A stretch of DNA of 64,000 nt from a virus. A program made the translations under genes and the position numbers. The notes under the pieces were generated by a model. The model saw only the letters and a program-made list of their open reading frames with translations. It had not been told where the DNA came from and searched no databases. The stretch's first letter is position 1, and every line of letters starts with the position of its first letter. Location: the IMG/VR virus record IMGVR_UViG_3300048905_000128; one strand, 5' to 3'. Positions 13,702 through 55,355 of the stretch are shown here, in pieces.

Positions 13702-14886
13702 TTACACCACCAACGCCGCATCAGTTTCCGGGGTCGATAAACCCGGCTGCCCGTCCGGGATGAACTCCCGTGTCCGCCCCAGCCCCCGCCGCCTCGGCGC
13801 AGGCTTCGGCGCCGACTTGCGCGGCTGGTAGATCCGCCGCGCAGCCGCACGACCGGCCTCCGCGATCGGGGCGGGCTCCGTCTCGGCAGCGCGCCGGGCC
13901 TCCTCGGCCGCCTCCTCGGCGGCCGCCAGCTCAGCCACGACGACCCGATGCGGAGTCGTGTGGTCGCACGGCGTCCGCGGCGACAACAGGACCCCGGGAT
14001 GCCCAGGCTGGCACCGGTCGCCCACCGGGTTGCACATCTCGCACGCCGCCAGGACGGCCGCCGTTTCGCGGGTCTCAACGGCGACCGGGTCCGGGGCCGC
14101 CTCGTGGCGGACCCGCTGCTGCCGGTTGTGGTTCTTGACCCGCTGGCACTTCCAGCAGCCCGGCACGTCGAACTCGGGATCGGCCCGGATCGCCGCGAGG
14201 TGCTCGGCGCACGCCCACTCCGACTCGGGGTCCGTCCACTTCGACTTCGGCAGGGGTGGGGGGGCGTCCGGGACCGGCCCCGTCTCGGGCTGGCCGTCGA
14301 CGGTCTCAGCTGCCCCCCCGGTCCCCCTGATGGTTCCTAAATGGTTCAAGGGGTCCCGCTCCGGGACCCCTGCTACGTCCCGCTCCGGGACGGGGGTAGT
14401 CCCGGAGCGGGACCTTGCCGACACATGGTCCCGCTCCGGGACTATGTCGTCGACCTGGGGATCATCGTCGCATGGTCCCGCTGCGGGACTATGTTCGCCA
14501 CCTGGGGTTTCTTCGGCGTCTAGGGCGTCGTCGGTCGGGGTCGGGTCGTCCTCGAACAGGGCTTCGAGCTCGTCCATCTCCTCCTTCGAGACGACTCGCT
14601 TCCGCGCCTTGAGGGCCTCGATGTTGAGTCGGTAGGCGTTCGAGCGCCGCGACCCGTTCCGGCGACGGCGGGCCCGACGCTCGATCAGGCCGTCCTCGTT
14701 CTCCAGCTCCTTGAGGAGCCGGAACACAGTCGATCGCGGGATGCCCGACGACCCCATCAGGTGCTCAATGCCGGGCTTGCACAGCCCGACGACGTTCGCG
14801 TTGTTGGCGATGGCGATCAGCAGCATCCGCTTGTTGACCGGGCCGACGTCGGACTCGAGGACAGCGTTCAGGGCCGGGATGCTCAC
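13702..14886 (-). CDS. winged-helix DNA-binding protein, candidate replication initiator (394 aa)
   Basis: GTG 14886 (VSIPALNAVLESDVGPVNKRMLLIAIANNANVVGLCKPGIEHLMGSSGIPRSTVFRLLKELENEDGLIERR) is a wHTH. Five palindromic iterons lie inside the gene. It is coupled to a 22-codon uORF. Confidence 0.7.
   Translation of the reverse strand: MSIPALNAVLESDVGPVNKRMLLIAIANNANVVGLCKPGIEHLMGSSGIPRSTVFRLLKELENEDGLIERRARRRRNGSRRSNAYRLNIEALKARKRVVSKEEMDELEALFEDDPTPTDDALDAEETPGGEHSPAAGPCDDDPQVDDIVPERDHVSARSRSGTTPVPERDVAGVPERDPLNHLGTIRGTGGAAETVDGQPETGPVPDAPPPLPKSKWTDPESEWACAEHLAAIRADPEFDVPGCWKCQRVKNHNRQQRVRHEAAPDPVAVETRETAAVLAACEMCNPVGDRCQPGHPGVLLSPRTPCDHTTPHRVVVAELAAAEEAAEEARRAAETEPAPIAEAGRAAARRIYQPRKSAPKPAPRRRGLGRTREFIPDGQPGLSTPETDAALVV
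14353..14489. repeat. five copies of the 15-bp palindrome GTCCCG-N3-CGGGAC (iteron-like)
   Basis: Copies at 14353-14367, 14377-14391, 14399-14413, 14428-14442 and 14475-14489. Confidence 0.8.
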
Positions 14887-15027: not shown

Positions 15028-15711
15028 CTAAGCCGCCCCCCGCTGGTGGGAAAGCCGGGCCGGGGCCGGTGCGGGTTCCGCGACGTCCGGGGCGGTGGCG
15101 AGGAGGATCTCGACGACGGCGATCGGGCAGCCGAGACGTTGGGCGATCCGCGACGTGTGCATCCACTGGGCGCGCAGTGTCCGGACGGGGATCCACCAGT
15201 GTTCGGCGGGCAGGTCGGTGATCGGGGCGAGCCCGGCGGCGACACGGGCCACCAGGGTGCCGTCCACGCCCGCGAGGATCGAGCCGTGGCGTACGGCCGG
15301 GTTGTCGATGTCGTGGCCGTACCAGTCCTGCCGGGACGCCCAGCGGTGCGCCTGGGCGGCGAGCCGGGCGTGCGGGGATGGGCCGGGGCAAGACTCGAGG
15401 TCGATGAACAGGACGGTGATCTTCTCGGCGAGCGCCACGGTGACGGTGCGGGCCCCGCCGTCGCGGATCTTCGAGATGAGCCGCGGGGACTCGTCGAGCG
15501 CTTCGGCGATGTCGGGGACGGGCCAGCCTTCGGCGGCGAGGGCGCGCAGGCGGCGAACGGTTCCGCGGGCGTCGGTGCGCGGCACCTTTTTACTGTCGGG
15601 AGGGTTCTTCTTTCGGGTCGGCGGTGTGAATGTGTTGGGCGGCCGGGATGCGATTTCTTCGGTTGACTGTGCAACCAACGCCGGCGACGGTGAGTGATTG
15701 ACGCAGGTCAT
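15028..15711 (-). CDS. DNA-binding protein with two HTH-like segments; start uncertain
   Basis: Track ORF 15028..15828. GC3 becomes high only after about 15585 (GTG, VPRTDARGTVRRL...). HTH-like segments are WPVPDIAEALDESPRLISKIRDG and WMHTSRIAQRLGCPIAVVEILL. Confidence 0.55.
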   Translation of the reverse strand: MTCVNHSPSPALVAQSTEEIASRPPNTFTPPTRKKNPPDSKKVPRTDARGTVRRLRALAAEGWPVPDIAEALDESPRLISKIRDGGARTVTVALAEKITVLFIDLESCPGPSPHARLAAQAHRWASRQDWYGHDIDNPAVRHGSILAGVDGTLVARVAAGLAPITDLPAEHWWIPVRTLRAQWMHTSRIAQRLGCPIAVVEILLATAPDVAEPAPAPARLSHQRGAA

Positions 15712-16342: not shown

Positions 16343-16561
16343 TCAGCTCGTCAGCTGATATCCGCTCGCCACTCCCCCGCCGTTCGGGCCGACAGCCCGC
16401 AACACGCGGATCAGCCCCGCCCGTTCCAGCTCGCGCGTCGCACGCTGTGCAGTGCGGGACGACGTCCCGATCACCCGCGCCAGCTCGGCCACCGTCAGCG
16501 ACCGAGCCCCCTGCGCGCACACGACCCGCAGATGCGACAGCAGACGATCCCTCGCGGACAT
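16343..16561 (-). CDS. small winged-HTH regulator (72 aa; possible extension to 16666)
   Basis: ATG 16561 (MSARDRLLSHLRVVCAQGARSLTVAELARVIGTSSRTAQRATRELERAGLIRVL). Confidence 0.55.
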   Translation of the reverse strand: MSARDRLLSHLRVVCAQGARSLTVAELARVIGTSSRTAQRATRELERAGLIRVLRAVGPNGGGVASGYQLTS

Positions 16562-26955: not shown

Positions 26956-28767
26956 TCATGTCCGCACCCACTTGCCGCGCCCGCTGTTGCGGGCCCGGCC
27001 CGCCTCGGCGAGCTTCCGCAGCGCCCGGTCGACCCGGCCCCGATCCACGTCGAGGGCCTTCGCGATGGCCGTCGGCCCGATCCCGCCCTCGGCGGGGAGC
27101 TGGGCGAGCACCTCGTCCTCGAAGTCCGCCGCGGCGACCGCGAGGGATGGGGCGACCTCGAGCGCAGGCACCGGCCTGTGGTCGACGACCTGGGAGGTGG
27201 AGCCCGACAGGATCCCGGCCGACCCGTGGTCGAGCATGATCGCGCCCGCGTCGACGGCGGCCCGGATCAGCCGCTCCCGCTCACCGTCGGTCAGGTACAC
27301 GCCCTTCGCCACGCGCGGGATGTTGTGCTCGTCGTCGCGGAGCAGCCACGTACCGGCCTGCAACTGCGTGCCGTCCCAGCCCTGCTTCACCGCGGAGCCC
27401 CACAGGATGCCGTTCATGTGCTGGTCGAGGCGGCCCCCGAACACGGCCATCATCTGCGCCCGGAACTCGGTGGACCCGGCATCCTCCTTCGTGCCGTTCT
27501 GCAGCATCACGTAGATCCACACCTCGGCCTTGCGGGCACGCTCGGCGAGCACCGTCAACGGGCCCACGATCTCCGGGCCCAGCGCCCTGACCAGCGACGG
27601 AAGCTCGTCGATCACCAGGAAGATGGGGGTGCCGTCCCACTTCTTGAGCTTCCGTTTGCGCATGTCGCGCTCGCGGTGCTCCACGGCCGCCATCACGCGG
27701 TTGAGCAGCTCACTGGCCTGCCCGGCGGTCGTCGCGACCGGGGCGAGCATCGTCGGCTCCCACTCCCCCAGCGACACCCCGCCCGCCATGTCGACCCCGA
27801 CGACCCCGGCCCGGCCGATCGTCATCCACGCCATGAGCGTGTCGCCCATGACGGACTTCCCGCCGCCGGACTGGGCGCAGATCATCGTGTGGCGGGTCAT
27901 CTTGTGCCCGAGCGGCGCCCGGTCCTCGAGCCTCGCCACGTTGCACAGCTCCGAACGCAGGTCTATCTGCCCGAACGGGATCGGGCCGGTCTTCGGGACC
28001 CCCGGGTGCGGGATGACGCCCTGCCACGGGTTCCGCGGCACGATCCGCACCAGCACCCGCCGCGAAGACGCCGCCTGCGAGATCGTCACCGCCCCCGGTC
28101 GCAGATGCGTGGACAGGGCGGACTCGACCTCCCTCGCGGTCCCGCCGACGCTCTTGACCGTCTGGGCGCGTCGCAGCTCGATGACCAAGTCGGTGACGAG
28201 CCGGTCGCCAGTCGTCAAAGACGGGATCACCCGCGACCCCTCGAAGGCCTTGATCGACGATGCGACATGCGGCCACCGTCGCGCCCACCGCGACGAGCGA
28301 CGCCGCGACCGGAACCGGCGATGCCACCACCACGGCAGCCCGAGCGATGCGACAGTCGCAGCCCACGCGATCCACGCCGGCTGCGACATCCCCGCCCACG
28401 CGATGAACGCCATCCAGCCGCCGCCGACCGCGACGAGCGCCGCCAGGTAGGTGCGTTCGCTGTCGCGGTCGAGCACGCCTTTGCGTCCGGCGTCGATCCG
28501 CTCCGGGACGAACCACGCCAGGGCCCGCTGCAGCCACGGCGACAGCCGGTGCCCGGCGTGTAGCAGCACCGGTGCGACACCGAGTGCGACGAGCGCGACC
28601 ACCGCGGCCGCCCAGGGTGCGACAGCGTGTAGCAGCAGGCCTGCGACGAGGATCCCGGCCGCGACAGCCCACGGGGCCAGCCCGGACCGGTACCGCCACA
28701 GCCGCCGCGACACCCACCGGGCCGCCCGCCAGGTGCGGCGAGCGGTCCGCTTCGTCGACGCCTTCAC
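26956..28767 (-). CDS. FtsK/SpoIIIE-family DNA translocase (TraB-like), N-terminal membrane anchor, C-terminal wHTH
   Basis: 603 aa with Walker A (AQSGGGKSV), Walker B (IFLVIDELP) and N-terminal transmembrane helices. The C-terminus is GIGPTAIAKALDVDRGRVDRALRKLAEAGRA. Confidence 0.85.
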   Translation of the reverse strand: MKASTKRTARRTWRAARWVSRRLWRYRSGLAPWAVAAGILVAGLLLHAVAPWAAAVVALVALGVAPVLLHAGHRLSPWLQRALAWFVPERIDAGRKGVLDRDSERTYLAALVAVGGGWMAFIAWAGMSQPAWIAWAATVASLGLPWWWHRRFRSRRRSSRWARRWPHVASSIKAFEGSRVIPSLTTGDRLVTDLVIELRRAQTVKSVGGTAREVESALSTHLRPGAVTISQAASSRRVLVRIVPRNPWQGVIPHPGVPKTGPIPFGQIDLRSELCNVARLEDRAPLGHKMTRHTMICAQSGGGKSVMGDTLMAWMTIGRAGVVGVDMAGGVSLGEWEPTMLAPVATTAGQASELLNRVMAAVEHRERDMRKRKLKKWDGTPIFLVIDELPSLVRALGPEIVGPLTVLAERARKAEVWIYVMLQNGTKEDAGSTEFRAQMMAVFGGRLDQHMNGILWGSAVKQGWDGTQLQAGTWLLRDDEHNIPRVAKGVYLTDGERERLIRAAVDAGAIMLDHGSAGILSGSTSQVVDHRPVPALEVAPSLAVAAADFEDEVLAQLPAEGGIGPTAIAKALDVDRGRVDRALRKLAEAGRARNSGRGKWVRT

Positions 28768-30563: not shown

Positions 30564-31127
30564 ATGGGCGACTTCCTGGAGCCCCACGAGGTCGGGCCCG
30601 TCATCCGCTCCTACCTGCGCGGGGAGGGCGACGTCGCGTGGCGGATCGAGCAGCTCCCTGCCTACGCGGTCACCTCCGACGGAGACGACTTCCGGCGTTG
30701 GCAGGCTGGGGAGCTCGAACCGACGTGGGAGCGCAAGCAGCTCAACTTCGATGTCCTCGCCCAGCGTGCGGCCAACGGGATCCGCTCGGAGCGGGTGCGG
30801 ATCTTCACCCCCGAGCTGACCGAGTACGAGCGGTACGCCTGCGAATGGGGCTACGCGCTGAATGGCCCGGCGGGCGAGGACATCCGCGTCCTGCATCGCG
30901 GCGAGCACAGGATCCCGCCGCTCCTCGGCTTCGACTACTGGCTCCTCAACGACACGGCAGTGATCCGGATGCACTACGACGAGGTCGGCCGGTGGTGCGG
31001 CGGCGAGTTCGCGCCCGAGCTCCTCGACGTCTGCCGCCGCGAGCGGGCCGCGCTGTGGGCGGCAGCCGAGCCCTTCGACACCTGGTATGCCCGCCACCCT
31101 GAGCTGCAGAGACGACTGGCAGCCTGA
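30564..31127 (+). CDS. DUF6879-like protein (187 aa)
   Basis: ATG 30564 with a GGAGG SD. MGDFLEPHEV...YWLLNDTAVIRMHYDEVGRW. The family assignment is from memory. Confidence 0.6.
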   Translation: MGDFLEPHEVGPVIRSYLRGEGDVAWRIEQLPAYAVTSDGDDFRRWQAGELEPTWERKQLNFDVLAQRAANGIRSERVRIFTPELTEYERYACEWGYALNGPAGEDIRVLHRGEHRIPPLLGFDYWLLNDTAVIRMHYDEVGRWCGGEFAPELLDVCRRERAALWAAAEPFDTWYARHPELQRRLAA

Positions 31128-31132
31128 TCGAC

Positions 31133-31987
31133 ATGACGGACAGTGCGTTTCCGGAGCGGCCCCCGCACAAGCTGGGGCCGCTCCTCCGCGCTGCCCGCCG
31201 AATCGCCGGCCTGTCGCAGAGCGCCGTGGCGAAGTCGACGAGCCTCCCCCAGTCGTCGGTGTCCCGCATGGAGCAGGACCCGCCGGGCAGCGTCCCGACA
31301 CCGAAGCAGGCAGTCGAGCTGGCGGACCTCTACCGGCTCCCCCACGAGTGGAGGGACCAACTGGTGCAGCTCGCCGAAGATCACAAAGAGCAGCGCGAGG
31401 AGCATCGATTCGTCGTCGTCCGCGGCCGCAACGTGCTGCACGTGCAGCGACGATTCCGTCGCCTCGAAGAGTCCGTGCAACGGATGCGGTCGTACTCGTC
31501 CGGGGTCGTGCTCGGTCAGCTGCAGTCACCGCGGTACGCGGCAGCCATCTTCGGCCAGCCCGCCGACTCCGAGGTCGTGCGCGAGCGTCTTGCCCGCGGA
31601 GTGCAGTCGGCAGCCAACAGCGGCCGCCGCTACGAGGTCGTGATGACCGAAGGGACCGCGTACCCGGGTCTGGGATCCGCCGAGGTGATGGTCGAGCAGT
31701 TCGAGCACCTGATCGAGGTGAGCCGTCTCCCCCACGTTGACCTGCGATGGATCGGCCGCGGCACGGTGCTCGACTCCCCGTCGTCGGTCCCCGGTTTCAA
31801 CATCTATGACGACACCGCGGTGGTCCTCAGCCAGGTCGATGGCGCTGCCACCCTCGACGACCCGGACGACATACTCCGCTACGTCGCCGAGTTTGATCGA
31901 CTCTGGGGTGCCGCCGCGGCTGGTGCCGAGGCGCGCGACGCGCTCGCCGAGGTCTCCGGCTGGTACTCCCGCTGGGCCGCCCAGTGA
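31133..31987 (+). CDS. XRE HTH regulator with DUF5753-like C-terminal domain (284 aa)
   Basis: HTH segment LGPLLRAARRIAGLSQSAVAKSTSLPQSSVSRMEQ, then a long C-terminal domain as in WhiJ/Scr1-type regulators (from memory). Confidence 0.75.
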   Translation: MTDSAFPERPPHKLGPLLRAARRIAGLSQSAVAKSTSLPQSSVSRMEQDPPGSVPTPKQAVELADLYRLPHEWRDQLVQLAEDHKEQREEHRFVVVRGRNVLHVQRRFRRLEESVQRMRSYSSGVVLGQLQSPRYAAAIFGQPADSEVVRERLARGVQSAANSGRRYEVVMTEGTAYPGLGSAEVMVEQFEHLIEVSRLPHVDLRWIGRGTVLDSPSSVPGFNIYDDTAVVLSQVDGAATLDDPDDILRYVAEFDRLWGAAAAGAEARDALAEVSGWYSRWAAQ

Positions 31988-32892: not shown

Positions 32893-32987
32893 TGTCGCCA
32901 ACCGGTGGGGGAGTGGTGGTGTACTTTCCGCGCGCAACCGGCCCACCTGCCACCCGCACCCCACAAGCCCCCCAGGAGCTCCCCGCC

Positions 32988-33893
32988 ATGATCGAGCGCA
33001 CCGTGTCCTTCATCAACGGGAAGGGTGGCGTCGGGAAGACGTCGCTCACCGCGAACCTCGGTGGGCTGATCGCCGCCGCCGGGTATCGGGTCCTGCTGTG
33101 CGATCTCGACCGCCAGGGAAACCTGGCCCGCGACCTCGGCATCAAAAATGACCCCAGAAATGATCTAGGTCGGTCGATGTTCGTCGCCGCCACCACCGGG
33201 GCCCCACTCGCACCCGTGGAGAACGTGCGACCGAACCTCGACGTCATCCCCGGCGGGAAGGTCATCGGCGAGATGGCGGGCGCGCTCTACTCCCGGGCCA
33301 TCCGCGGCGAGAGCGTCGACACAGCCGTCGAGCAGGCCCTCGCACCGCTCGCCGGGAACTACGACCTCATCCTGTTGGACTGCCCGCCGGGGGAGGAGAC
33401 GGTGCAGCGCATGGCGTTGACCACGTCGGAGTACGTCGTCATCCCCACCAAGAGCGACGCCGCATCCCTCGACGGGCTCGTCGAGGTCTCCGAGCTGTTC
33501 GCCGCCGTCCGCCAGTCGAGCAACCCGTACGTGCAGCTCCTCGGCGTGGTGCTGTTCGGGACCGGGGTGACGTCGAAGCGGATCGCCGCCGACACCCGCA
33601 AAGCGGTGGCGCGGGACCTGGGGAACCCCGACCTCGTGTTCGACGCCCGGATCCGGCACGTCGAGGCGGCCGCCGTGAACACCCGCGACGTCGGCCGTCT
33701 CGTCCACGAAGTCGAGGCCGACCTGCCCGCCGCGAAGGCGGCCCGGCTCGCGCAGCTGCGAGCCGGGCGGCACCGGGCCGACGACGCCGGGCCCCGGCTC
33801 GCCGCATCGGCCGCCGGGCTGGCCGCCGACTATGCGGCGCTCGCCCAGGAGTTCACCGCCCGTCTCGCCGAGCGCGTCGAGGTGGCGCCATGA
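32988..33893 (+). CDS. parA: ParA-family partition ATPase (301 aa)
   Basis: Deviant Walker A FINGKGGVGKTS, plus LLDCPPG. AGGAG SD before ATG 32988. Confidence 0.9.
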   Translation: MIERTVSFINGKGGVGKTSLTANLGGLIAAAGYRVLLCDLDRQGNLARDLGIKNDPRNDLGRSMFVAATTGAPLAPVENVRPNLDVIPGGKVIGEMAGALYSRAIRGESVDTAVEQALAPLAGNYDLILLDCPPGEETVQRMALTTSEYVVIPTKSDAASLDGLVEVSELFAAVRQSSNPYVQLLGVVLFGTGVTSKRIAADTRKAVARDLGNPDLVFDARIRHVEAAAVNTRDVGRLVHEVEADLPAAKAARLAQLRAGRHRADDAGPRLAASAAGLAADYAALAQEFTARLAERVEVAP

Positions 33894-34411
33894 CGCAGGA
33901 CCCCCGCGACCTGTCCGCGATGACGTCCCCGCCACCCGCCCGGGCGGCCGGGCTCGCACTCCCGCCGAGGCGGCAGACAGCGGCGCCCGCCCCCGAACGG
34001 GAACCGGTGGGGGAGGAGCCCGAGAAGCGGGCCCGCCCGCCGAAACGCAAGCCCGCCGAGAAACCCGCAGGGCGCACGAAGCTGCAGTACACCGCCTACT
34101 TCCCGCTCCCCGTCGTCGAAGCCATCGAGCGCGACCTCGCAGGCCGGTCATGGTCGGAGTGGTTCCTCGACGCCTTCCGCGCCCACCACCACGAGCTCGA
34201 CGACCGCTTCGACAAGGGGGTGCCGGGGGACGACTCCGGGCTCCCCGCCCGCCCTCGCGGCGCACGGAAGGCCGTCGACAGGCCCACACCCAAGCAGCTC
34301 CGTCTGACGGCCGAGGAGATCGCCGTCCTCGAGTCCAAGCGGGAGAAGGTCGGCAGCCCCAACCGGTCCGAGTTTCTCACTGTGCTCGCGGAGCTCCACC
34401 TGGCGAGGTGA
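33890..34411 (+). CDS. partition partner, tandem ribbon-helix-helix (ParG-like) protein
   Basis: ATGA overlap with the parA stop. Basic Pro-rich N-terminus. Two RHH-like units: YTAYFPLPVVEAIERDLAGRSWSEWFLDAF and LRLTAEEIAVLESKREKVGSPNRSEFLTVLAELHL. Confidence 0.6.
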   Translation: MTQDPRDLSAMTSPPPARAAGLALPPRRQTAAPAPEREPVGEEPEKRARPPKRKPAEKPAGRTKLQYTAYFPLPVVEAIERDLAGRSWSEWFLDAFRAHHHELDDRFDKGVPGDDSGLPARPRGARKAVDRPTPKQLRLTAEEIAVLESKREKVGSPNRSEFLTVLAELHLAR

Positions 34412-35204: not shown

Positions 35205-36125
35205 TCAGCGCGACAGCGCGATCACCGAGGCGTTCACCTCGGCCGTCGGGTCGCATCGGCCCTCGACGGTGACCGCGACACAGCCGTCGAGCACCACGAC
35301 GCCGTGGATCAGGTTCCGCGGCGACCCGGGGATGTTCACCTCGCCGTTCGGGAGTACGACGCCGTGCTCGTCGAGCTGGCAGACCCGGAAGTCGGCGGTA
35401 CCGCCGTCGGGGCCGTACGCCATCCCGAACTTCACCCAGCAGGCGCGCAGGGCCGCGGACTGGGGTCCGGCCTCGGCGGCGGTGATGAGCCGCCGGAACG
35501 TGCCGTCGGGGCGGACGGTGATCGAAACGTCGGACACGGGGTCCTCCTCGGACGGGGCCGCCGCGGCGGCCGGGGAGCTGGTGGGGGAGCCGGTGACGGC
35601 GGCCATGAACTCGGGCCACGGGAACCCCGGCCCGGGGTCGGTGTGGGTGGACTGGTGCCACGTCTCGGAGACGTCGACGTGCCCGCAGATCCCGTGCCCG
35701 CCCTCGTGGAGCTCCGGGACGCCGATCCGGACGGCCGGGATCGCGAACCGGGCACACAGCTCGGCAGTGCGCCCGGCGGCCCGGACGACGGCGGGCCACA
35801 CGGCGGGGGAGAGCCACTGCTCCCGCGTGTAGGTGGCCTCCCCGCACACCTCGATGCCGATGCTGTGCTGGTTGGGCGGCGCATGCCAGGCGATGTGCGC
35901 GTCGGGGACGCAGTGCTGCTCCCCGGCGACGTCGACGACGTAGTGGGCGGACCCACGCGCCTCAGCCGTGTCGAAGTAGTGGGCCGTCGAGGCGGCCTGT
36001 CCTGCAGCGGACGCCTCCGGATAGCCCAGATCCGGGCAGGTCGCGTGGATGACGACCCGGGTCGGCATCAGGTTGCCCGGCCCGTCGTCGTGGACGGCCT
36101 GCAGAGTGACCGGCGGTTCCGCCAC
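35205..36125 (-). CDS. endolysin, N-acetylmuramoyl-L-alanine amidase (Amidase_2/PGRP-like) plus C-terminal domain
   Basis: GTG 36125 after GGGGA. Motifs VVIHATC, HYVVD, IAWHAPPNQHSIGIEVCG and HVDVS...HTDPG. Confidence 0.85.
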   Translation of the reverse strand: MAEPPVTLQAVHDDGPGNLMPTRVVIHATCPDLGYPEASAAGQAASTAHYFDTAEARGSAHYVVDVAGEQHCVPDAHIAWHAPPNQHSIGIEVCGEATYTREQWLSPAVWPAVVRAAGRTAELCARFAIPAVRIGVPELHEGGHGICGHVDVSETWHQSTHTDPGPGFPWPEFMAAVTGSPTSSPAAAAAPSEEDPVSDVSITVRPDGTFRRLITAAEAGPQSAALRACWVKFGMAYGPDGGTADFRVCQLDEHGVVLPNGEVNIPGSPRNLIHGVVVLDGCVAVTVEGRCDPTAEVNASVIALSR

Positions 36126-36138
36126 GGCGTCCCCTCTC

Positions 36139-39100
36139 TCAGATGGTGGTGATCGGTGTCGCGGCCCGGTAGAGGCCGCGGGCGTACGGGCGTCCGGCCC
36201 GGGGGAGACCGGTCGCGTAGGGCTGGCCTGCGCGCAGAGCACCGACCGGGCCCGGGCCGACCCCGAACGGGGCCGCCGAATCCCGCGCGGCCGCCACATC
36301 GGTAGCGGTCCGTGTGACCGCGTGGATCCGGGTGGCCGTGTCGAGGGCTGCGGCCTGGTCGACGACCGCCCGACCCCGCTGCGACGGGGCCCTCACCGCG
36401 ACATCGGTTGCGGCCGCGACATCCGCGGCGGTAAAGGCCCTCGTCGAGGTGGGCCCCGCCTGGTCGGCTGCGGGGGCCGCATCGGAGGCGGTGCGGGACA
36501 CCACCAGGTGACGGAGCACCGTGTCCGCTGCCGTCGCGGCATCGGCGATCAGCCGCGACAGCGACACCGCGGCCGTGGTGACATCGGAGGCCGGTGCGAC
36601 ATCCGATGCAAACCGGGGGAGCCCCGCCGGTACGAACACGCTGTCGAATGCCGGGGCCGAATCCTGGGCGGTCCGCGACCGTGACAGCGGGCTGCGGGTG
36701 GCGGCCGGTGTCGCCGAGGCCGAGTCGGTGACGTCGCGGCTGGTCGAGAGGTTCGCCCGGGTGGCGACGTCGACCGCTACGGCGACGTCCTGCGCCGTGT
36801 GTTGGAGCTGCACGGCCCGGCCCGCGACGTCGAGCGCCGGGGCCGAATCGGCGCTGCCCCGGGTGGGGGACAGCGCAGCCCGGGACGCCACGTCGACTGC
36901 AGCTGCGACATCCACGGCGGTGCGGCCGACACCGTCCGGGGCTCGGGTCGCCCCGTCGAGCGCCGCCGCGGTGTCGGCGACGGTCCGCCCGATCGAGGCG
37001 GCCGCCGTCGCCGCATCGACCGCGGCGGCCTGGTCGTCGGCGGTCCGGGCCCCGAGCTCGGGGGGGCGCCCGGCCTGATCCGTTGCCGCCGCGGTGTCGG
37101 CGGCCTGCCGGTCGACGGTGACCTGCCCGGCCGCGGTGTCGACGGCCGGGGCGTGGTCGACGACGAACTGGCCGCCCGCCGCTGACGTCCCCGCCGTGTC
37201 CACGGCGGGCGCCGAGTCGGCGGCCGACCGGGATCTCGTCGTTGCTGCTCGTCCCGCCGAGTCCACGGCCGGGGCGGAGTCGCCTGCCTGGCGGGATGCC
37301 ACCGTGCTCCGGGCCGCGCTGTCTGTCGCTGGCGCGGTGTCGGTGACGGTGCGGGACAGCCGGACAGCCGGTGTAGCACCGTCGACCGCAGGGGCGGTGT
37401 CCGTGGTGCTCCGTAGCGGCGACATCGTGGCCCGTGCCGCGACGTCGACGGCCGCCGCGACATCGGATGCTGTCGTAGCGCCGCCGAGCTGGTCGGCCGC
37501 CGAGTCCACGGCCGGGGCGGAGTCTGTCGCAGTGCGGGACCATGTCGCGCCACCCCGGTTTGCGACATCGGTCGCAGCCGCGGTGTCACCGGCCGTGCGG
37601 GCGGCCGAGAACGGGGCCCGGCCCGCCGAGTCGGTCGCGGCGGCGGTGTCCGTTGCGACCCGGGCGGGGGTCAGAGCAGACCGGGTGGCCGAGTCGGTCG
37701 CGGCCGCGGTGTCCCCGCCGGTTCGGGAGAAGATCGAGCCTGCACGGGCGGCGGTATCCGTCGCCGGCGCGAGGTCACCACCGGTGCGGCTGACCGCCAG
37801 TGCCGTCCGGCTGGCTGTGTCGGTAGCCGCGGCGGTGTCGGCGGCCGTCCTAGACCACGTGTCCGCCGAGCGTGTGGCGCTGTCGGTCGCCGCAGCGGTG
37901 TCGGCCCCGGTCCGGGTGACGAGCAGGGCCGCCCGGGTGGCCGTGTCGGCGGCTGGGGCCGTGTCGGTCGCGGTCCGGGCCCGGGTGATCGTCGAGCGGG
38001 TCGCGGTGTCCGCCGCCGGGGCCGAGTCGGTCGCGCCGATCGTGCTGGCCTGGGCGCCCCGCACCACCGCGTCGCCGGCCGGGGCCGAGTCCGATGCGGT
38101 GCGGATGGACGAGGTGGCCGCCCGTGAGGCCGCATCGGTGGCGGCCGCCGAGTCGACGGGGGAGCGGCCCGCCGTGGTCGTGCGGGCTACGGAGTCCGTC
38201 GCGGCCGCCGTGTCGGCGCCCGACCGGGACTTGAGTACCGCTCCGTGGGTAGCGGAGTCGCTGGCCGGGGCCGAGTCCGACGCGGTCGCCAAATGCGACC
38301 CCGACGTGCCGAGCAGCGCGTTCGTGACGAGGCCGCCGATGATGGCGTGTCCGGCGTCGGTCGGGTGATAGTCCGACGTCCAGTCGGTGGTTCCGGGGCC
38401 GCCGGTGCCGGACATCCACGTCTCGGCGTCGATGACCAGCAGGTTTCCGTCGGTTGCCGCGTAGCTCCTGATGGCGGCGGCGTACGCCGCCCACGTCGGG
38501 CTGGCCGTCGCGGCGGTCGGGGACACGTTGTGCGCGATGAACAGGGCGATCGACGGCACCTTCGTGAGGGCGCGCGCCCATCCGACCAGGGTGGTCAGGT
38601 AGCCGATGTACGCGGCCGTCGTGGTGTTCGCCGACCAGTCGTTGAGCCCCAGCTCGATGAGCACGAGGTCGGGGCTGAGGGCATCCCACGTGGCCGGGAG
38701 CGTGTTCGACCCGACCGCGTCGAAGCCGCTCGCATACTGCTGGGCGGTGATGCCGACGCGGGCCCCGTCGTAGAGCGTGATCCCGCTGGTGGCGTCGCCG
38801 TCGAAGACGACGAGGCCGCCGACGTACGCGTTCTGCGCTGCGTTCGTGGCGACCTGCACGGTGTGGGACCCGGAGGCGCCGAGGGTGATGGTCGTCGGCG
38901 TCCAGGTGGGCGCACCGCCGTTGTCGGCGGTCACGGTGACCGGGGAGCCGCCGTCGACGGAGTAGGTGAACTGGGAGGCGCCGCTGTAGGCGCCGTACCA
39001 GAGCTGCGCCGAGGTGCCGGTGACCGTCCACGTGAGGGTGGCGGTGGTGCCCAGTAGTCGAGTGTTGAAGCCGAACGGTCCGGACCAGAAGTCCGTATTG

Positions 39101-51860: not shown

Positions 51861-54800
51861 TCACCGCCCCGTGCCGAAGCCGTAGGTGGTGCCCGATCCG
51901 GTGTTCCGGATGCCGTGCTTGAGGAGCTCCTGCTGTAGCTCGGTGACGAGGTCCTTGGTGGTCCACACGTTGCCCTGCACAGTCGGTTGGACGTTGACGA
52001 CGGTGATCTGCTGGCCGGTGGGGGCGCCGGCGAGGATGCCGGGGCGTCCGGCCAGCAGGTTGGGGGTCGCCGCGAGGGCGGCCCCGTCGGACCCGATCGT
52101 CGAGGCGGTGAGCGACAGCCCGGACAGGGCGCCGCTGGTGGAACGGGTGGCGGCGATGATCTGGTTGGCGGCTGCCTGGGCTGCGGTGACGGCGAGGGGC
52201 GCTGCGGCGTCGATGCCGTTCGCGAGGCCTTGCATCAGCCACATGCCGGACTCGTGGGCGATCTTCGACGGGGAGGAGATCCCGAGGGCGGACTTCACGC
52301 CGCCCCACAGCGAGGACGCCCAGCCGGTCAGCTTGTCCCACACCCAGCCGGTCATCGAGGAGATGCCGTTCCACAGCCCGGCGAGTAGGTCGTGTCCGGC
52401 GTTGACGAGCCAGTCACCGGCGGACGCGAAGAAGTCCTTGATCTTCCCGGGCAGTTCGGACAGGAATCCGGTGAACTGCTCCCACTGGACTTTGATGCCA
52501 TTCCAGAGGCCCTGAACGACGTCCCCGCCGATGCTGTGGAAGATCGTCGACGGCGACGCGATGCCGAGCCCGCGCTTGAATCCGTCGATGAAGTTCGAGA
52601 TAAACGAAGTGATGCCATCCCAGATTGTGGAAAAGAATCCGGTGATGCCATTCCACAGGCCCTGCAGGATGTTCTTTCCGGCGTCGAGCAGCCAGCTACC
52701 TGCGTCGGAGAAGAAGTGGCCGATCTTGCTCGGCAGCGAGGTGAAGAAGTCCACCTCGATCTGCCACTGGCGCTTGCCGGACTCGATCCAGCCGTCCCAC
52801 ATCTCCTTCGCCTTGTCGGCGATCCAGTTCTTGGCGTCAGTGAAGAAGTCTTTTACTCGCTGAGGGATGGACTTGATGAAGGCGACCTCCATCTGCCAGC
52901 CCTCTTGGAACTTCTCTTTGAAGCCCTCCCACAGCGCCTTCGCCTTATCGGCAATCCAGTTCTTGGCGTCGGAAAAGAAGTCCTTGATCCGCTGAGGGAT
53001 GGATTTAATGAAGGCGACTTCCATCTGCCAGCCCTCTTGGAACTTCTGCTTGAAGCCCTCCCACAGTTCCTTCGCCTTATCGGCGATGGTGCGGGCCAGC
53101 TCGCCGAGCTTCTGACCCAAGATTTGTCCCCACTCGGCGGGGCTCTTGGACATGATCGTCTTGACCAGGTCGACCCCGGCCCGGAAGGGGGCGAGGAGGA
53201 AGTCACCGACCTTCGACAGGGCGGTCTTGACCGCGTCACCCGCAGCCGACAGCGCCGCCCCGATCTTCTCCGGAATGGATTTCACGAAACCGACGAGGTC
53301 GGAGATCCGGTCGCCGCACCAGTTGACGGCTGTGGTGAAAGCGGATTTGACCTTGTCCCACAGCCCGGAGAAGAAGTCGGCGACCCCCTGCCAGTGCTGC
53401 ACCAGCTCGTAGATGCCGTAGGCGAGCAGGGCGACCGCGGCGATGATCGCGAGGATCGGCCAGGTCGCGGCGATCACGCCGACCGCCGCCGTCGCGGCCG
53501 CGATGCCGAGGGCGACGAACGCGGCCACCAGGACCACGCCGATCACGACGGCCGCGATGGTGGCGACCGTCGAGTGCTGTGTGAGCCAGGTCGTCGCGGT
53601 CGAGAAGGCGCCGATGATCCCGGACACGACCGGGAGCAGCTTCTCCCCGATCTGGATCGCCAGGGCGCCGAGAGAGTCCTTCGCCTGACTCAGCTTGGTG
53701 TTGAACTCGTTCTGGATGTCGGCCCAGCCGCGGACGTGACCGCCCGCCTCGGTGGTTGCGCCCGAAACGTTCTTGATCGCCTGGTTGGTGTAGTCGGCGT
53801 TCTCGCCGGTCGTCATCAGGGCGACCTTGAGCCCGGTCGCATCGCCCATGACCTTCGTCATCGCGCCGCCGTAGGTCTGCAGCGCGGTCGCACCGTCCAT
53901 GTTCGTGGTGCCGAGCTGGTGGGTCTGACCGGCCAGGGTCGCGAACGACTGCGCCTGCTTCGCCGAGATGGGGTCGAGGGCCTTCGCCTGCTTGGTGAAG
54001 GCGGCGAGGCTGATCGACCCGTCCTCGAGTTTCGCCGCGAGCTGCTGAACGGCCGGGGTGCTGTTCTGCACCGCCGTCTTGAGCTGGGCGACGACCTGGT
54101 CCGTGCCGGGCGGCATCGCCTTCGACACGGCCTGCTGCAGGTACTGCATGGTTCCGGAGAGCCCGCGCTGCCCGAGCTTCGCTGAGACGTCGTCGGCGCT
54201 GATCCCGAGGAGCGCCATCTCCTGACGCTGGGTCGCGGTCGGGGCCTGCAGATGCCGGATGGCGTCCGCCATGTTCTGCGTCGCCTGGTCGGCCGAGATG
54301 CCGTGCGACGTCATCGAGGCGAGCGTGCCCAGCATGTCGTCGAGGGAGATGTTCGCCGCCGACGCGAGCGGGGCGACCGACGAGAGCGCGCCCGACAGCT
54401 CCTCGAAGGACATCTTGCCGGACGCGGTGGCCGCGACGAACTTGCTGGTCACGGTGGCCGCATCGTCGGCCTTGAGGTGGTAGTCGATCAGCGCGGTGGT
54501 GACCGCGTCCGAGACTGTCGTCAGGTCGGCGTTCTCGGCCTTCGCACCCTCGGCGGCGGCCTGCAGCACCTTGAGCCCATCGGCGCCGTGCTGCCCGCCG
54601 GACTCGATCTTGTACATGGCCTTGGCGAGGTCGTCGGCGCTGTACCCGACCTGACCGGCCATCTTGAGGATGCCGTCGCGAACCATGTCGAGGTTGCCCT
54701 CGGTCTCGTTCGCCGAGGTCACAAGGCGGGTGGTCGCCATGTCGAAGTCGCCGGCCATCTTCACCGTGACCCCGGCGACGATCCCGGCCGCTGCACCGAG

Positions 54801-55355
54801 CCCCATCAGCTGACCGGAGGTGAGGCCGACCATCCCGGCCGTGTCGGACAGCGTGGTCTTGAAGGTGTTAGCTGCTGTCGCGACGGTTCCCATCTCGATC
54901 GCCGAGCCGGACCACTTGGCGGCGGCGAGCTCGTTCGCAGCGACCAGCCGAGTCTCGGCCGCCTCCATCTCGGCGACGTCAGACAGCACTTTGTCCCGCA
55001 TGACGGACATCGCCGCGGCGCTGTCCCCGGCCGCCTTCTCGTAGCCGAGGGCGAGCTCCTGGGCGGACTTGGCGAGCATCGAGTTCGCGTCGATCAGCTC
55101 GCCGTCGATGGTGAACATGCGCCCGGTGGCGTCGATGTAGACCCCGACGGCGGCCAGCACCGCGGCCTGGACTTCCTCGGACATCGACACGGACGCCGCC
55201 GCGACGGTCTCGAACCCGCCCGCGGCCTCCGCGGAGGCCGCGGTGAGCGCGGCCGTCATCTCCTCGCCCGCGGCGGCGGCCTCGCCGAATCCTGCGGTGA
55301 GGGGGGCGGTCTCGGCGCGGAGGGAGACGTAGAGGTCTGCGACGGCGTCCGACAC
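51861..55355 (-). CDS. tape measure protein
   Basis: More than 1160 aa and helical, with a central transmembrane-like Ala/Ile/Val stretch and internal 44-aa repeats. It lies downstream of the G/GT chaperones. GAAGGGGG SD before GTG 55355; the alternative start is 55391. Confidence 0.9.
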   Translation of the reverse strand: MSDAVADLYVSLRAETAPLTAGFGEAAAAGEEMTAALTAASAEAAGGFETVAAASVSMSEEVQAAVLAAVGVYIDATGRMFTIDGELIDANSMLAKSAQELALGYEKAAGDSAAAMSVMRDKVLSDVAEMEAAETRLVAANELAAAKWSGSAIEMGTVATAANTFKTTLSDTAGMVGLTSGQLMGLGAAAGIVAGVTVKMAGDFDMATTRLVTSANETEGNLDMVRDGILKMAGQVGYSADDLAKAMYKIESGGQHGADGLKVLQAAAEGAKAENADLTTVSDAVTTALIDYHLKADDAATVTSKFVAATASGKMSFEELSGALSSVAPLASAANISLDDMLGTLASMTSHGISADQATQNMADAIRHLQAPTATQRQEMALLGISADDVSAKLGQRGLSGTMQYLQQAVSKAMPPGTDQVVAQLKTAVQNSTPAVQQLAAKLEDGSISLAAFTKQAKALDPISAKQAQSFATLAGQTHQLGTTNMDGATALQTYGGAMTKVMGDATGLKVALMTTGENADYTNQAIKNVSGATTEAGGHVRGWADIQNEFNTKLSQAKDSLGALAIQIGEKLLPVVSGIIGAFSTATTWLTQHSTVATIAAVVIGVVLVAAFVALGIAAATAAVGVIAATWPILAIIAAVALLAYGIYELVQHWQGVADFFSGLWDKVKSAFTTAVNWCGDRISDLVGFVKSIPEKIGAALSAAGDAVKTALSKVGDFLLAPFRAGVDLVKTIMSKSPAEWGQILGQKLGELARTIADKAKELWEGFKQKFQEGWQMEVAFIKSIPQRIKDFFSDAKNWIADKAKALWEGFKEKFQEGWQMEVAFIKSIPQRVKDFFTDAKNWIADKAKEMWDGWIESGKRQWQIEVDFFTSLPSKIGHFFSDAGSWLLDAGKNILQGLWNGITGFFSTIWDGITSFISNFIDGFKRGLGIASPSTIFHSIGGDVVQGLWNGIKVQWEQFTGFLSELPGKIKDFFASAGDWLVNAGHDLLAGLWNGISSMTGWVWDKLTGWASSLWGGVKSALGISSPSKIAHESGMWLMQGLANGIDAAAPLAVTAAQAAANQIIAATRSTSGALSGLSLTASTIGSDGAALAATPNLLAGRPGILAGAPTGQQITVVNVQPTVQGNVWTTKDLVTELQQELLKHGIRNTGSGTTYGFGTGR
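52690..53090 (-). repeat. three tandem 132-bp (44-aa) repeats inside the tape measure gene
   Basis: ADKAKELWEGFKQKFQEGWQMEVAFIKSIPQRIKDFFSDAKNWI occurs twice, nearly identical, plus one diverged copy. The anchor CGCCTT(A/G)TCGGC lies at 52809, 52941 and 53073. Confidence 0.8.

What the first reader, a model, noticed from the sequence alone, without database searches (positions are those of the whole stretch)
14353..14489. Five 15-bp palindromic iterons (GTCCCG-N3-CGGGAC) inside the winged-helix rep-like gene: candidate origin of replication
Copies lie at 14353, 14377, 14399, 14428 and 14475, within 137 bp. By base composition I expect about 0.04 such sites in the whole window.

The same DNA unit is translated in different frames and contexts: VPERD three times, RSRSG once and SPAAG once. 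The conserved feature is therefore the DNA palindrome, not a peptide repeat. Copies 4 and 5 share an extended CATGGTCCCGCTSCGGGACTATGT.

Origins embedded in the initiator gene are known for several phages and plasmids. Together with the par genes, this points to autonomous replication.
Basis: partly seen in the sequence, partly recalled or inferred. Interest (0 to 1): 0.7.

Follow-up and report, generated by a model that had tools for sequence, protein, structure and literature searches.

The report
Phage replication origin inside its initiator gene
The five palindromes are real and are most likely the binding sites of a phage replication initiator, placed inside that initiator's own gene as in phage lambda; this layout is well known, here found in an undescribed actinobacterial phage, with a neighbouring 12-base repeat shared by many related phages.

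Summary
**Observation: confirmed.** Five exact GTCCCG-N3-CGGGAC sites lie at 14353-14489. Shuffles give 0.11, and the window has no other exact copy. They lie in minus-strand gene 13702..14886 (394 aa), inside a tailed-phage-like contig.

**Interpretation: supported by comparative evidence; no experiment was possible.**
- The first ~112 residues form a winged-helix domain that matches phage 'replication initiation (O-like)' families.
- The palindromes sit just after it, in a stretch predicted to be disordered.
- All seven independent relatives (39-68% identity, two from Pseudonocardia genomes) keep 4-5 copies at the same gene position, with spacing 57(47)/29/22/24.
- Orthologous sites are read in different frames, and no change is compensatory. 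The DNA is therefore what is conserved.
- More distant relatives have the same layout with a different palindrome (CCGGCAC-N3-GTGCCGG) and a different recognition helix.

**New here.** Directly after the last palindrome is CCCTTGAACC plus GAACC-N-TCA 12-mers (14322-14352), the least stable DNA in the gene. This signature retrieved 78 viral contigs, and 56 of 74 ORFs carry the same DNA-binding domain. All 18 lineages examined have their own repeat array.

**Verdict.** This is a lambda-style origin inside the initiator gene, a new member of a known kind. A ParA-like gene is present, and no integrase was found in the window.

The parts
13702..14886 (-). Initiator gene (394 aa, GTG start at 14886). 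It has an N-terminal winged-helix DNA-binding domain, a disordered linker that carries the origin, and a Cys-rich C-terminal domain.
   Evidence: ORF list and GC3 frame analysis. Identical protein P0001 in JGI gene calls. PHROG replication-initiation families hit residues 1-130: phrog_391 at 1e-13, phrog_1032 at 1.4e-12.
14551..14886 (-). Codes for residues 1-112, the winged-helix DNA-binding domain. It includes the invariant RRxRRRxNGSRRSNAY wing and the recognition-helix motif RSTVFRLL.
   Evidence: Protein alignment A1. AF2 model shows helix-helix-helix-strand-strand, pLDDT 60-74. The top fold matches are all winged-helix regulators, but none is significant. Weak Pfam wHTH hits.
14475..14489 (.). 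Iteron 1, the promoter-proximal one in gene order: GTCCCGCTGCGGGAC. It is extended to a palindrome of about 23 bp by CATG/TATG flanks.
   Evidence: The orthologous site is present in all 5-site relatives.
14428..14442 (.). Iteron 2: GTCCCGCTCCGGGAC, with CATG/TATG flanks.
14399..14413 (.). Iteron 3: GTCCCGGAGCGGGAC.
14377..14391 (.). Iteron 4: GTCCCGCTCCGGGAC, 22 bp from iteron 3.
14353..14367 (.). Iteron 5: GTCCCGCTCCGGGAC, 24 bp from iteron 4. It abuts the 12-mer element.
14322..14352 (-). Conserved 12-mer element: CCCTTGAACCATTTAGGAACCATCAGGGGGA on the gene strand. The invariant CCCTTGAACC is followed by GAACC-N-TCA repeats. It contains the lowest-GC 24-mer of the gene (42% against 71%). 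This is the candidate unwinding or loading site.
   Evidence: Present right after the last iteron in all 10 relatives found by protein similarity, and read in two different frames. The least stable 30-mer of the gene starts at 14321, 0.33rd percentile of the window. The signature retrieves 78 viral contigs, 56 of 74 in homologous initiator genes.
14230..14547 (-). Codes for residues 114-219, a predicted disordered linker. All the origin elements lie in this coding stretch.
   Evidence: AF2 pLDDT below 50 over residues 114-207 and 209-219. The protein alignment is poor here while the DNA motifs are invariant.
13831..14229 (-). Codes for residues 220-352, a Cys/His-rich, mostly helical C-terminal domain of unknown function. 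Relatives P0006, P0007 and L017 have a lambda-O-like C-terminal domain here instead.
   Evidence: Alignment A1. AF2 pLDDT reaches 90 around residues 290-330. No Pfam, NCBIfam, PHROG or PDB hit. O-like C-terminus in relatives.
32913..33893 (+). ParA-like P-loop ATPase. This is context only and not part of the origin.
   Evidence: Pfam AAA_31 at 1e-31, CbiA, ParA. A 36%-identical homologue lies 5 kb from the initiator gene in the Pseudonocardia spinosispora contig L002.

Best explanation
This is a lambda-style origin of replication embedded in the gene of its own initiator.

**Proposed mechanism (inferred).**
1. The N-terminal winged-helix domain of the 394-aa protein binds, probably as a dimer, to each of the five 15-bp palindromes (half-site GTCCCG). 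These lie in the DNA that encodes the protein's own disordered linker.
2. The three iterons nearest the 12-mer element are 22 and 24 bp apart, about two helical turns. Bound dimers would then sit on one face of the helix and could assemble into an O-some-like nucleoprotein complex.
3. That complex would destabilise the adjacent 24-30 bp. This is the least stable duplex in the gene and carries the GAACC-N-TCA 12-mers.
4. Those 12-mers are most likely recognised in duplex or single-stranded form, either by a conserved part of the initiator or by a conserved host replication factor.
5. The host helicase would then be recruited through the C-terminal domain. That domain is Cys-rich here and lambda-O-like in some relatives.

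**Shown here:** the sequence anatomy, its conservation at DNA level, the co-variation of iteron and DNA-binding domain, and the family-wide layout.

**Inferred:** binding, phased assembly, melting, helicase loading, and whether the origin serves lytic replication, plasmid-state replication, or both.
For: 1. **Non-random cluster.** Five exact sites against 0.11 expected, and none elsewhere in the window.
2. **The host gene looks like an initiator.** Its N-terminus matches eight PHROG 'replication initiation' families and has winged-helix topology.
3. **Conservation at DNA level.**
   - All seven independent GTCCCG-type relatives (39-68% identity; window plus L001, L002, L004, L006, L007, L008, L014) keep 4-5 sites at gene nt ~355-535.
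   - Spacing is 57(47)/29/22/24 in the 5-site group and 99/74/22 in L006 and L008.
   - There are 38 copies in all: 33 perfect, 5 with a one-sided change, and none compensatory.
   - Orthologous sites are read in different frames, for example VPERD against GPGAGP.
   - Exact copies occur essentially only inside this gene.
4. **Specificity co-variation.** L012, L013 and L025 have CCGGCAC-N3-GTGCCGG-type palindromes (about 4 in L012 and L013, spacing 26/22/22 in L013; 3 partial copies in L025) and the recognition-helix motif SERKL in place of RSTVF. Sixteen further loci, 15 of them distinct lineages, have their own arrays of 3-7 repeats.
5. **Same layout as ori-lambda.** In lambda the iterons occupy O nt 349-433, spaced 20/24/23, and are followed by an easily melted tract (PMC7466680). 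Here they occupy nt 398-534, followed by the least stable 30-mer of the gene.
6. **The origin lies in a disordered linker.** The coding stretch has pLDDT below 50, which explains why DNA motifs can be imposed on it.
7. **Link to lambda O.** Relatives P0006 and L017 join this DNA-binding domain to a lambda-O-type C-terminal domain. P0006 matches phrog_391 over its full length at 4.6e-39, and BLASTP against lambda O gives 9e-7.
8. **The 12-mer element is under DNA-level selection.** A/T third positions are enriched in 9 of 10 relatives found independently of the DNA pattern (p from 1e-5 to 3e-3). It is also read in two frames.
Against: - There is no experimental evidence of binding or of replication.
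- The low-GC element is short (about 24 bp at 42% GC). Twenty-six other places in the window reach an equally low 24-mer GC, so it is not a classical AT-rich tract.
- The window protein shows no direct homology to lambda O. hhalign gave probability 0.2 and matched only the C-terminal region. Its C-terminal domain is of unknown function.
- No helicase, helicase loader, primase or polymerase was recognised in the window, so the downstream steps are unsupported.
- The two distal iterons are spaced 29 and 47 bp, which is not in helical phase.
- The AF2 model is of modest quality (mean pLDDT 57), and the fold search gave no significant match.
Confidence: 0.8

Rival explanations
1. The palindromes are bound by the protein, or by another HTH protein, but act only as regulatory operators or roadblocks. 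They would serve autoregulation of the early leftward operon, or copy control, and would not be the site where replication starts.
For: - 15-bp palindromes are typical operator sites for dimeric HTH proteins.
- The gene sits third in an operon, after two small HTH genes (16343..16561 and 15028..15711).
- No replisome-recruitment function could be assigned to the C-terminal domain.
Against: - Operators normally lie at promoters. They are not usually found as 4-7 phased copies in the middle of a coding region at a conserved position.
- The array is always joined to the conserved low-stability 12-mer element, which a pure operator does not need.
- The protein family is annotated as, and related to, initiators or replisome organisers, and some members carry the lambda-O C-terminal domain.
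Confidence: 0.08
2. The array is a segregation or transfer site. It would be either a centromere for the ParA-like system (32913..33893) or a clt-like site for the FtsK/SpoIIIE-like translocase (26956..28767). The second idea rests on the resemblance of TCCGGGAC to the Streptomyces TraB recognition sequence GACCCGGA, which I recall from memory.
For: - A ParA-like gene and an FtsK/SpoIIIE-like gene are both in the window.
- The iteron contains TCCGGGAC, one mismatch from the reverse complement of the TraB recognition octamer (from memory; not tested with tools).
Against: - The palindromes travel with the initiator gene, not with these genes. Among the relatives, only L002 has a ParA homologue within the DNA fetched, and none has the FtsK-like gene (gene tables).
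- The same architecture occurs in dozens of phage contigs of 48-71% GC, each with its own repeat sequence.
- From memory, centromeres normally flank the par operon and clt sites flank traB.
- The sites here are 18 kb from the ParA-like gene and 12 kb from the FtsK-like gene.
Confidence: 0.03
3. The feature acts at RNA or peptide level: stable hairpins in the mRNA (translation or stability control), or a repeated peptide in the linker.
For: The 201-nt RNA folds far better than shuffles: -118.7 kcal/mol, z = -6.5. VPERD occurs three times.
Against: - All copies within an element share one sequence, not just pairing potential.
- All five observed changes break a pair and none is compensated.
- Some lineages have repeats with no evident dyad symmetry (L030, L066).
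- Orthologous copies are read in three frames, giving unrelated peptides.
- No T-run terminators follow the palindromes.
- The only Rfam matches are sub-threshold miRNA hairpins: 30.8 bits against a gathering score of 80.
Confidence: 0.03

Closest known systems
Phage lambda gene O and ori-lambda, and the lambdoid/Stx phages (NC_001416 38686-39585; PMC7466680)
   Same: - The origin lies inside the initiator gene, just after the part that encodes the N-terminal DNA-binding domain.
- It holds 4-6 dyad-symmetric iterons of 15-19 bp, about 20-24 bp apart.
- An easily melted tract follows on the promoter-distal side.
- Iteron sequence differs between related phages, along with the initiator's specificity.
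- Some relatives of the window protein (P0006, L017) carry a C-terminal domain homologous to that of O.
   Different: - The window protein shows no direct similarity to O. Only its relatives P0006 and L013 share two PHROG families (678, 345) with O's N-terminus.
- The C-terminal domain here is Cys-rich and unrelated to O.
- No P-like loader was found.
- The melted tract is a short conserved 12-mer repeat at 42% GC in a 72% GC genome, not a 40-bp AT tract.
- There are five iterons, two of them out of phase.
phrog_391 'replication initiation O-like' and Pfam HTH_36 (PF13730) phage initiators
   Same: The N-terminal domain of the window protein aligns to profile positions 1-118 of phrog_391 at 1e-13. 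Relatives P0006 and P0007 carry Pfam HTH_36 and match phrog_391 end to end.
   Different: The window protein lacks the C-terminal two thirds of that family, the O/DnaD-like part. I found no published origin for this family.
Iteron-controlled plasmids and secondary chromosomes, such as RK2 TrfA with its 13-mers, F RepE, pPS10 RepA, and Vibrio cholerae chr2 RctB with its ATCA repeats (from my own knowledge; a review, PMC4980987, was listed but not read)
   Same: - An array of initiator-binding repeats sits next to an unwinding element.
- That element itself carries short sequence-specific repeats, which the initiator can bind in single-stranded form.
   Different: - Plasmid iterons are direct repeats bound by monomers of WH1-WH2 Rep proteins, and usually lie outside the rep gene.
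- There is no Rep_3-type match here.
- The sites here are palindromes inside the gene.
Gene-internal origins of Gram-positive phages, such as SPP1 gene 38/oriL and lactococcal TP901-1 (from my own knowledge; not checked with tools)
   Same: The replisome-organiser gene contains its own binding repeats followed by an AT-rich segment.
   Different: Different protein families and different repeat types. The hosts are low-GC.
RepA/parABS extrachromosomal mycobacteriophage prophages (PMC7157519)
   Same: An actinobacterial temperate phage with a par gene and an HTH initiator. [quoted passage not shown]
   Different: - That RepA belongs to the pMSC262 plasmid family and lies next to parABS.
- The window protein had no tblastn match in the phage or plasmid collections.
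- ParA lies 18 kb away here, and no ParB or parS was identified.

Membership tests
Lambda-type origin embedded in the initiator gene (functional class) | The repeat array lies inside the initiator ORF, immediately downstream of the segment that codes for the DNA-binding domain. | tested here: met
   The iterons occupy gene nt 398-534 (residues 133-178). The DNA-binding domain is residues 1-112. In lambda the iterons occupy O nt 349-433.
Lambda-type origin embedded in the initiator gene (functional class) | Four or more dyad-symmetric iterons, spaced about two helical turns apart. | tested here: met
   There are five 15-bp palindromes. Spacing in gene order is 47/29/22/24; the three nearest the 12-mer element are 22 and 24 bp apart. 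Lambda's spacing is 20/24/23.
Lambda-type origin embedded in the initiator gene (functional class) | An easily melted (AT-rich) tract flanks the iterons on the promoter-distal side. | tested here: inconclusive
   The least stable 30-mer of the gene directly abuts the last iteron (-39.4 kcal/mol against a window mean of -48.4; 0.33rd percentile). It is only about 24 bp long at 42% GC, and 26 other places in the window reach an equally low 24-mer GC.
Lambda-type origin embedded in the initiator gene (functional class) | Iteron sequence co-varies with the initiator's DNA-binding domain among related elements. | tested here: met
   GTCCCG-type iterons go with the helix motif RSTVF. CCGGCAC-type iterons go with SERKL. 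Fifteen further distinct lineages each have their own repeat.
Lambda-type origin embedded in the initiator gene (functional class) | The initiator binds the iterons, and the fragment supports initiator-dependent replication. | not testable with these tools
   This needs EMSA or footprinting, and a replication assay.
Lambda O protein family (homology) | An N-terminal domain homologous to that of O. | tested here: inconclusive
   hhalign of alignment A1 against lambda O found no N-terminal match, and Pfam gave no Phage_rep_O hit. However, relatives P0006 and L013 hit phrog_678 and phrog_345 in the same profile region as O's N-terminus. The window protein itself does not.
Lambda O protein family (homology) | A C-terminal, P-interacting domain homologous to that of O. 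| tested here: not met
   The window protein's C-terminus is Cys-rich and has no hits. The feature is met in relatives only: P0006 against O gives E = 9e-7, and L017 also has it.
phrog_391 / Pfam HTH_36 initiators | An N-terminal HTH_36-type winged helix. | tested here: met
   phrog_391 profile positions 1-118 at 1e-13. Pfam HTH_36 is recorded for P0006 and P0007. The window protein itself has only sub-threshold Pfam wHTH hits.
phrog_391 / Pfam HTH_36 initiators | A full-length match that includes the O/DnaD-like C-terminal part. | tested here: not met
   Only profile positions 1-118 of 298 are matched.
Iteron-plasmid Rep proteins (Rep_3 / WH1-WH2) | Rep_3-type protein, with direct-repeat iterons outside the gene. 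| tested here: not met
   No Rep_3 hit in Pfam or NCBIfam. The sites are palindromes inside the gene. No tblastn match in 72,556 plasmids.
Streptomyces TraB/clt transfer locus | Clustered 8-bp recognition repeats next to an FtsK-like traB gene. | tested here: not met
   The FtsK-like gene is 12 kb away and is absent from the DNA fetched for the relatives, while the palindromes persist. The motif resemblance is from memory only.
ParABS centromere | Repeats bound by ParB that flank the par operon. | tested here: not met
   No ParB was recognised. The sites are 18 kb from the ParA-like gene. Relatives keep the sites without a ParA gene nearby.

The most novel reading that the evidence does not exclude
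The GAACC-N-TCA 12-mer repeat (consensus TTGAACC-N-TCA-NNN, 2-4 copies) that abuts the iterons may be a previously undescribed, universal module of the origins of a large family of phage initiators with an HTH_36-type winged helix.

It is conserved as DNA in hosts from 48% to 72% GC, while the iterons next to it change with each lineage. It would be a sequence-specific unwinding or loading element, recognised in duplex or single-stranded form either by the invariant wing (RRxRRRxNGSRRSNAY) of the initiator or by a universally conserved host replication protein.

If so, origins of this family could be predicted from sequence alone. The window's protein, with its Cys-rich C-terminus swapped in at the origin linker, would then show how such initiators exchange helicase-recruitment modules by recombination at the origin itself.
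Probability: 0.35. Interest if true: 0.6.

Novelty: new member of a known kind. Interest (0 to 1): 0.4.

Why it matters
- It gives a precise, testable origin for an uncultured actinobacterial phage or phage-plasmid longer than 100 kb, and for related elements in Pseudonocardia: about 170 bp, at 14322-14489.
- If confirmed, the initiator gene is a compact self-contained replicon. That could be used to build vectors for Pseudonocardia and related high-GC actinomycetes.
- The family-wide pattern of lineage-specific iterons next to a constant 12-mer offers a simple sequence rule for annotating origins in many phage genomes.
- The same pattern is a natural data set for learning the DNA-recognition code of this winged-helix domain.

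Tried and rejected
- **Near-identity searches:** megablast of 13000-16000 against plasmids and against phages gave no match.
- **tblastn of the protein:** no match against phages or plasmids.
- **Protein search with the N-terminal 113 aa alone:** nothing found. Only 49 candidates shared words with the query, so this is a limit of the method and not evidence of absence.
- **hhalign of the family against lambda O:** no N-terminal match.
- **PDB sequence search:** nothing meaningful.
- **Foldseek against PDB:** only non-significant winged-helix hits, from a modest model.
- **NCBIfam:** nothing.
- **Integrase, polymerase, primase, DnaB or loader in the window:** none found among the ORFs scanned. 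The 'Serglycin' hits come from my own Gly-Ser linkers.
- **Conservation of neighbouring genes by tblastn:** the upstream HTH gene, RecT, SNF2 and FtsK are not detectably conserved next to the initiator in relatives.
- **Literature:** searches for the 12-mer sequence and for an HTH_36 origin found nothing relevant.
- **Rfam:** only sub-threshold miRNA-hairpin matches caused by the palindromes.
- **GC skew:** follows gene orientation and was not informative about the origin.
- **Readings rejected:** peptide repeat, RNA hairpin, terminator, parS and clt. The reasons are given under the rival explanations.
Full report
**1. Observation**

The pattern GTCCCG-N3-CGGGAC occurs exactly five times in the 64-kb window, at 14353, 14377, 14399, 14428 and 14475. 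Dinucleotide-preserving shuffles give a mean of 0.11 and a maximum of 2. Copies with up to two mismatches elsewhere are at chance level, 27 against 26.3 expected.

The two copies at 14428 and 14475 lie within a longer 42-nt direct repeat that is 83% identical. All five sites are inside a minus-strand ORF, 13702..14886. GC3 frame analysis selects this ORF as coding, and JGI calls it as an identical 394-aa protein on contigs of up to about 132 kb.

In gene order the five sites are read in frames 1, 0, 2, 0, 0, as SPAAGP, VPERD, RSRSGT, VPERD, VPERD.

**2. Context**

The window has about 72% GC and no tRNA genes. It is phage-like:
- a tape-measure protein at 51861..55391 (phrog_58, 1.5e-83);
- a major head protein at 60075..61526, and a head-tail adaptor;
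- an amidase endolysin at 35205..36299 and a holin-like gene;
- a RecT-like protein, an SNF2 helicase and WhiB.

A ParA-like ATPase is at 32913..33893 (AAA_31, 1e-31). The ORF after it has no recognisable ParB domain. No integrase, polymerase, primase, DnaB or loader was found among the ORFs I scanned. The window is only part of the contig.

The gene with the palindromes is third in a leftward operon. Ahead of it are a small MarR-like HTH gene (16343..16561) and a 227-aa HTH_23 protein (15028..15711). This operon diverges from a rightward RecT-WhiB-SNF2 operon.

**3. The protein**

Residues 1-130 match eight PHROG families annotated 'replication initiation (O-like)' or 'primosomal' (phrog_391 at 1e-13). 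Pfam gives only sub-threshold winged-helix hits.

An AlphaFold2 model built on a 7-sequence alignment has mean pLDDT 57. It shows three regions:
- residues 1-112 form a helix-helix-helix-strand-strand winged-helix unit, pLDDT 60-74;
- residues 114-219 are disordered, pLDDT below 50;
- residues 225-350 form a helical, Cys/His-rich C-terminal domain, pLDDT up to 90.

Foldseek against the PDB returned only winged-helix regulators at the top, none of them significant. All the palindromes lie in the DNA that encodes the disordered linker.

**4.

Protein search found six non-identical relatives at 39-68% identity, and I fetched their DNA. A scan of reference genomes added Pseudonocardia sp. NPDC049635 and re-found P. 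spinosispora DSM 44797.

- **The sites are kept.** All seven independent relatives have 4-5 copies of the same palindrome at the same place in the gene. Gene-sense start positions are:
  - window: 398/445/474/496/520;
  - L001: 370/427/456/478/503;
  - L002 and L004: 383/440/469/491/515;
  - L007: 386/443/472/494/518;
  - L014: 386 (one mismatch)/443/472/494/518;
  - L006 and L008: 355/454/528/550.
- **The sites are nearly invariant.** Of 38 copies, 33 are perfect, 5 carry a one-sided change that breaks a pair, and none carries a compensatory change. The central triplet is free.
- **The peptide is not conserved.** Orthologous copies are read in different frames, VPERD in some relatives and GPGAGP or SPAAGR in others. 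The protein alignment of this stretch is poor while the DNA is invariant.

So the DNA is what is conserved, and the condition for refutation (palindromes lost in relatives) is not met.

**5. Co-variation**

Two more distant viral contigs, L012 and L013, are 38-39% identical over residues 1-87. They lack GTCCCG sites. At the same place they carry four copies of a different palindrome, CCGGCAC-N3-GTGCCGG, spaced 26/22/22.

Their recognition-helix region reads CSERKL. All GTCCCG-type proteins have RSTVF there, with R51, S52 and T53 invariant. L025 has the CSERKL helix and also has the GCAC-N3-GTGC-type palindromes. A repeat that changes together with the DNA-binding domain encoded next to it is what is expected of an initiator and its own iterons.

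**6. A second, constant element**

In all ten relatives found by protein similarity, the last iteron is followed at once by the invariant CCCTTGAACC. After that come 2-3 GAACC-N-TCA repeats with a 12-13 nt period.

- **Stability.** In the window this is 14322-14352. It contains the lowest-GC 24-mer of the gene (42% against 71%). The least stable 30-mer of the gene starts at 14321 (0.33rd percentile of the window). The element is short, and 26 other places in the window reach an equally low 24-mer GC.
- **Frames.** It is read as PLEPSxEPS in most relatives and as PLNHLGT or PLNRHKNRH in the window, L006 and L008.
- **Codon usage.** In 9 of 10 relatives its third codon positions are A/T far more often than in the rest of the gene (p from 1e-5 to 3e-3).

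The constraint is therefore on the DNA.

**7. Reach of the architecture**

Searching IMG/VR for CCCCTTGAACCNTCANNNGAACC gave 9 loci. Searching for TTGAACCNTCANNNGAACCNTCA gave 78. My own rough estimate, not a tool result, is that only a few would be expected for 18 specified bases.

Of 74 single-hit ORFs, 56 match an HMM of the window family's N-terminal domain at E < 1e-3. Most of the rest are truncated at contig ends or are low-GC EPS peptide repeats. Genome GC content ranges from 0.48 to 0.71.

I examined 13 representative lineages plus the six loci first recovered (L019 and L021 are one element), which makes 18 distinct lineages. Each has its own array of 3-7 repeats directly upstream of the 12-mers. 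Most are dyad-symmetric, and the proximal ones are spaced 21-23 bp. About ten loci read the 12-mers in the alternative frame, as LNRHRNHQ.

**8. Comparison with lambda**

In lambda, the four iterons occupy O nt 349-433 with spacing 20/24/23, and the AT-rich tract follows. The literature confirms three points (PMC7466680):
- the origin lies in the middle of gene O;
- each iteron is a roughly 19-bp inverted repeat;
- Stx phages have six iterons, and the two iterons nearest the AT-rich tract, together with that tract, suffice for unwinding.

The layout here is the same. Homology is only partial:
- hhalign of the family against O shows no N-terminal match;
- lambda O matches phrog_391 only through its C-terminal domain, whereas relative P0006 matches phrog_391 end to end, and its C-terminus aligns to O (E = 9e-7);
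- L017 has a clearly O-like C-terminus;
- P0006 and L013 also hit phrog_678 and phrog_345 in the profile region that O's N-terminus hits, which hints at remote relatedness of the DNA-binding domains.

The window protein keeps the DNA-binding domain and has a different, Cys-rich C-terminal domain. It appears that modules have been exchanged at the origin-bearing linker.

**9. Mechanism proposed**

These steps are inferred:
1. Dimers of the winged-helix domain occupy the five palindromes.
2. The three proximal sites, 22 and 24 bp apart, align the dimers on one face of the helix and nucleate an O-some-like complex.
3. The adjoining 12-mer element melts or is specifically engaged.
4. The C-terminal domain recruits host replication proteins.
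5. Transcription of the gene itself passes through the origin, as it does in lambda.

Shown here: anatomy, DNA-level conservation, co-variation, and family-wide architecture. Not shown: binding, melting, loading, and the mode of replication.

**10. Rivals**

- **Operator-only function.** It cannot be excluded, but it does not explain the constant 12-mer partner or the mid-gene position.
- **Centromere or clt.** These readings fail because the sites travel with the initiator gene and not with ParA or the FtsK-like gene.
- **RNA hairpins.** The RNA does fold very stably (z = -6.5). However, the copies share sequence and not merely pairing potential, the changes are uncompensated, some lineages have non-palindromic repeats, no T-runs follow the palindromes, and the Rfam matches are sub-threshold hairpin noise.
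- **Peptide repeat.** It is excluded by the different reading frames.

**11. Novelty and verdict**

An origin embedded in the initiator gene is textbook for lambda and is known for other phages. This is a new member of that kind, in uncultured actinobacterial phage-like elements related to Pseudonocardia contigs.

I found no description of an origin for this initiator family, or of the conserved 12-mer, in the searchable literature. That search covers open-access papers only. The autonomous plasmid-like state remains possible but unproven: ParA is present, no integrase was seen in the window, and the two Pseudonocardia relatives sit on small separate contigs of 22.7 and 64.2 kb.

Noticed in passing
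The same DNA signature marks homologous initiator genes in at least 56 viral contigs of 48-71% GC, each with different iterons, and it is read in two frames. I could not find it described in the literature I could search.
   Followed up: yes
window 13831-14229 (-); relatives P0006, P0007, L017: The initiator's C-terminal domain is Cys/His-rich (motifs such as WxC..H, CxxC, CEMC, CDH) and has no database match. Relatives with the same DNA-binding domain and the same iterons have a lambda-O/DnaD-like C-terminus instead. This suggests module exchange at the origin-bearing linker.
   Followed up: partly
window 32784-32821, just upstream of the ParA-like gene 32913..33893: An 11-nt tandem repeat, GCGGCCAACAG x 3.5, lies about 90 bp before the ParA-like gene. 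It could be a centromere-like site. The 173-aa ORF after ParA (33890..34411) has no recognisable ParB domain.
   Followed up: no
window 26956..28767 (-): A 603-aa protein with a marginal FtsK/SpoIIIE domain hit (25.3 bits against a cutoff of 24) lies in a phage context. A 289-aa ORF of unknown function is translationally coupled to it (its stop overlaps the FtsK-like start by 4 nt), and a YdjM-like membrane protein lies beyond a 142-bp gap.
   Followed up: no
window 15712-16840: A divergent control region lies between the leftward operon (initiator) and the rightward operon (RecT/WhiB/SNF2). It holds the lowest-GC stretches of this part of the window (24-mers at 33-38% GC at 16166-16330), a 72-aa MarR-like HTH gene (16343..16561), and a 41-bp near-perfect palindrome at 15888-15928. 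It is probably the early promoter and immunity region.
   Followed up: no
window 42149-42234 and 58899-59092: Two intergenic tandem arrays: an 18-nt unit, CCGTCCACCCCGGGTTTC, x 3.3 between 42001 and 42581; and a 72-nt unit x 2.7 between head-region genes. Their function is unknown.
   Followed up: no
window 52790-53087: A 132-nt repeat x 2.3 lies inside the tape-measure gene. It is presumably a protein-level repeat.
   Followed up: no
L035, L056, L083 (IMG/VR GVMAG contigs), L085: The same 12-mer pattern occurs as long uninterrupted tandem arrays (3-5 consecutive 24-nt matches) in giant-virus MAG contigs. These are apparently unrelated to the initiator genes and remain unexplained.
   Followed up: no
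window 30564..31987 (+): A DUF6879 gene is followed by an XRE-type HTH_31/DUF5753 gene. I recall this pair as typical of actinomycete chromosomes and plasmids. It sits between the FtsK-like and ParA-like genes.
   Followed up: no
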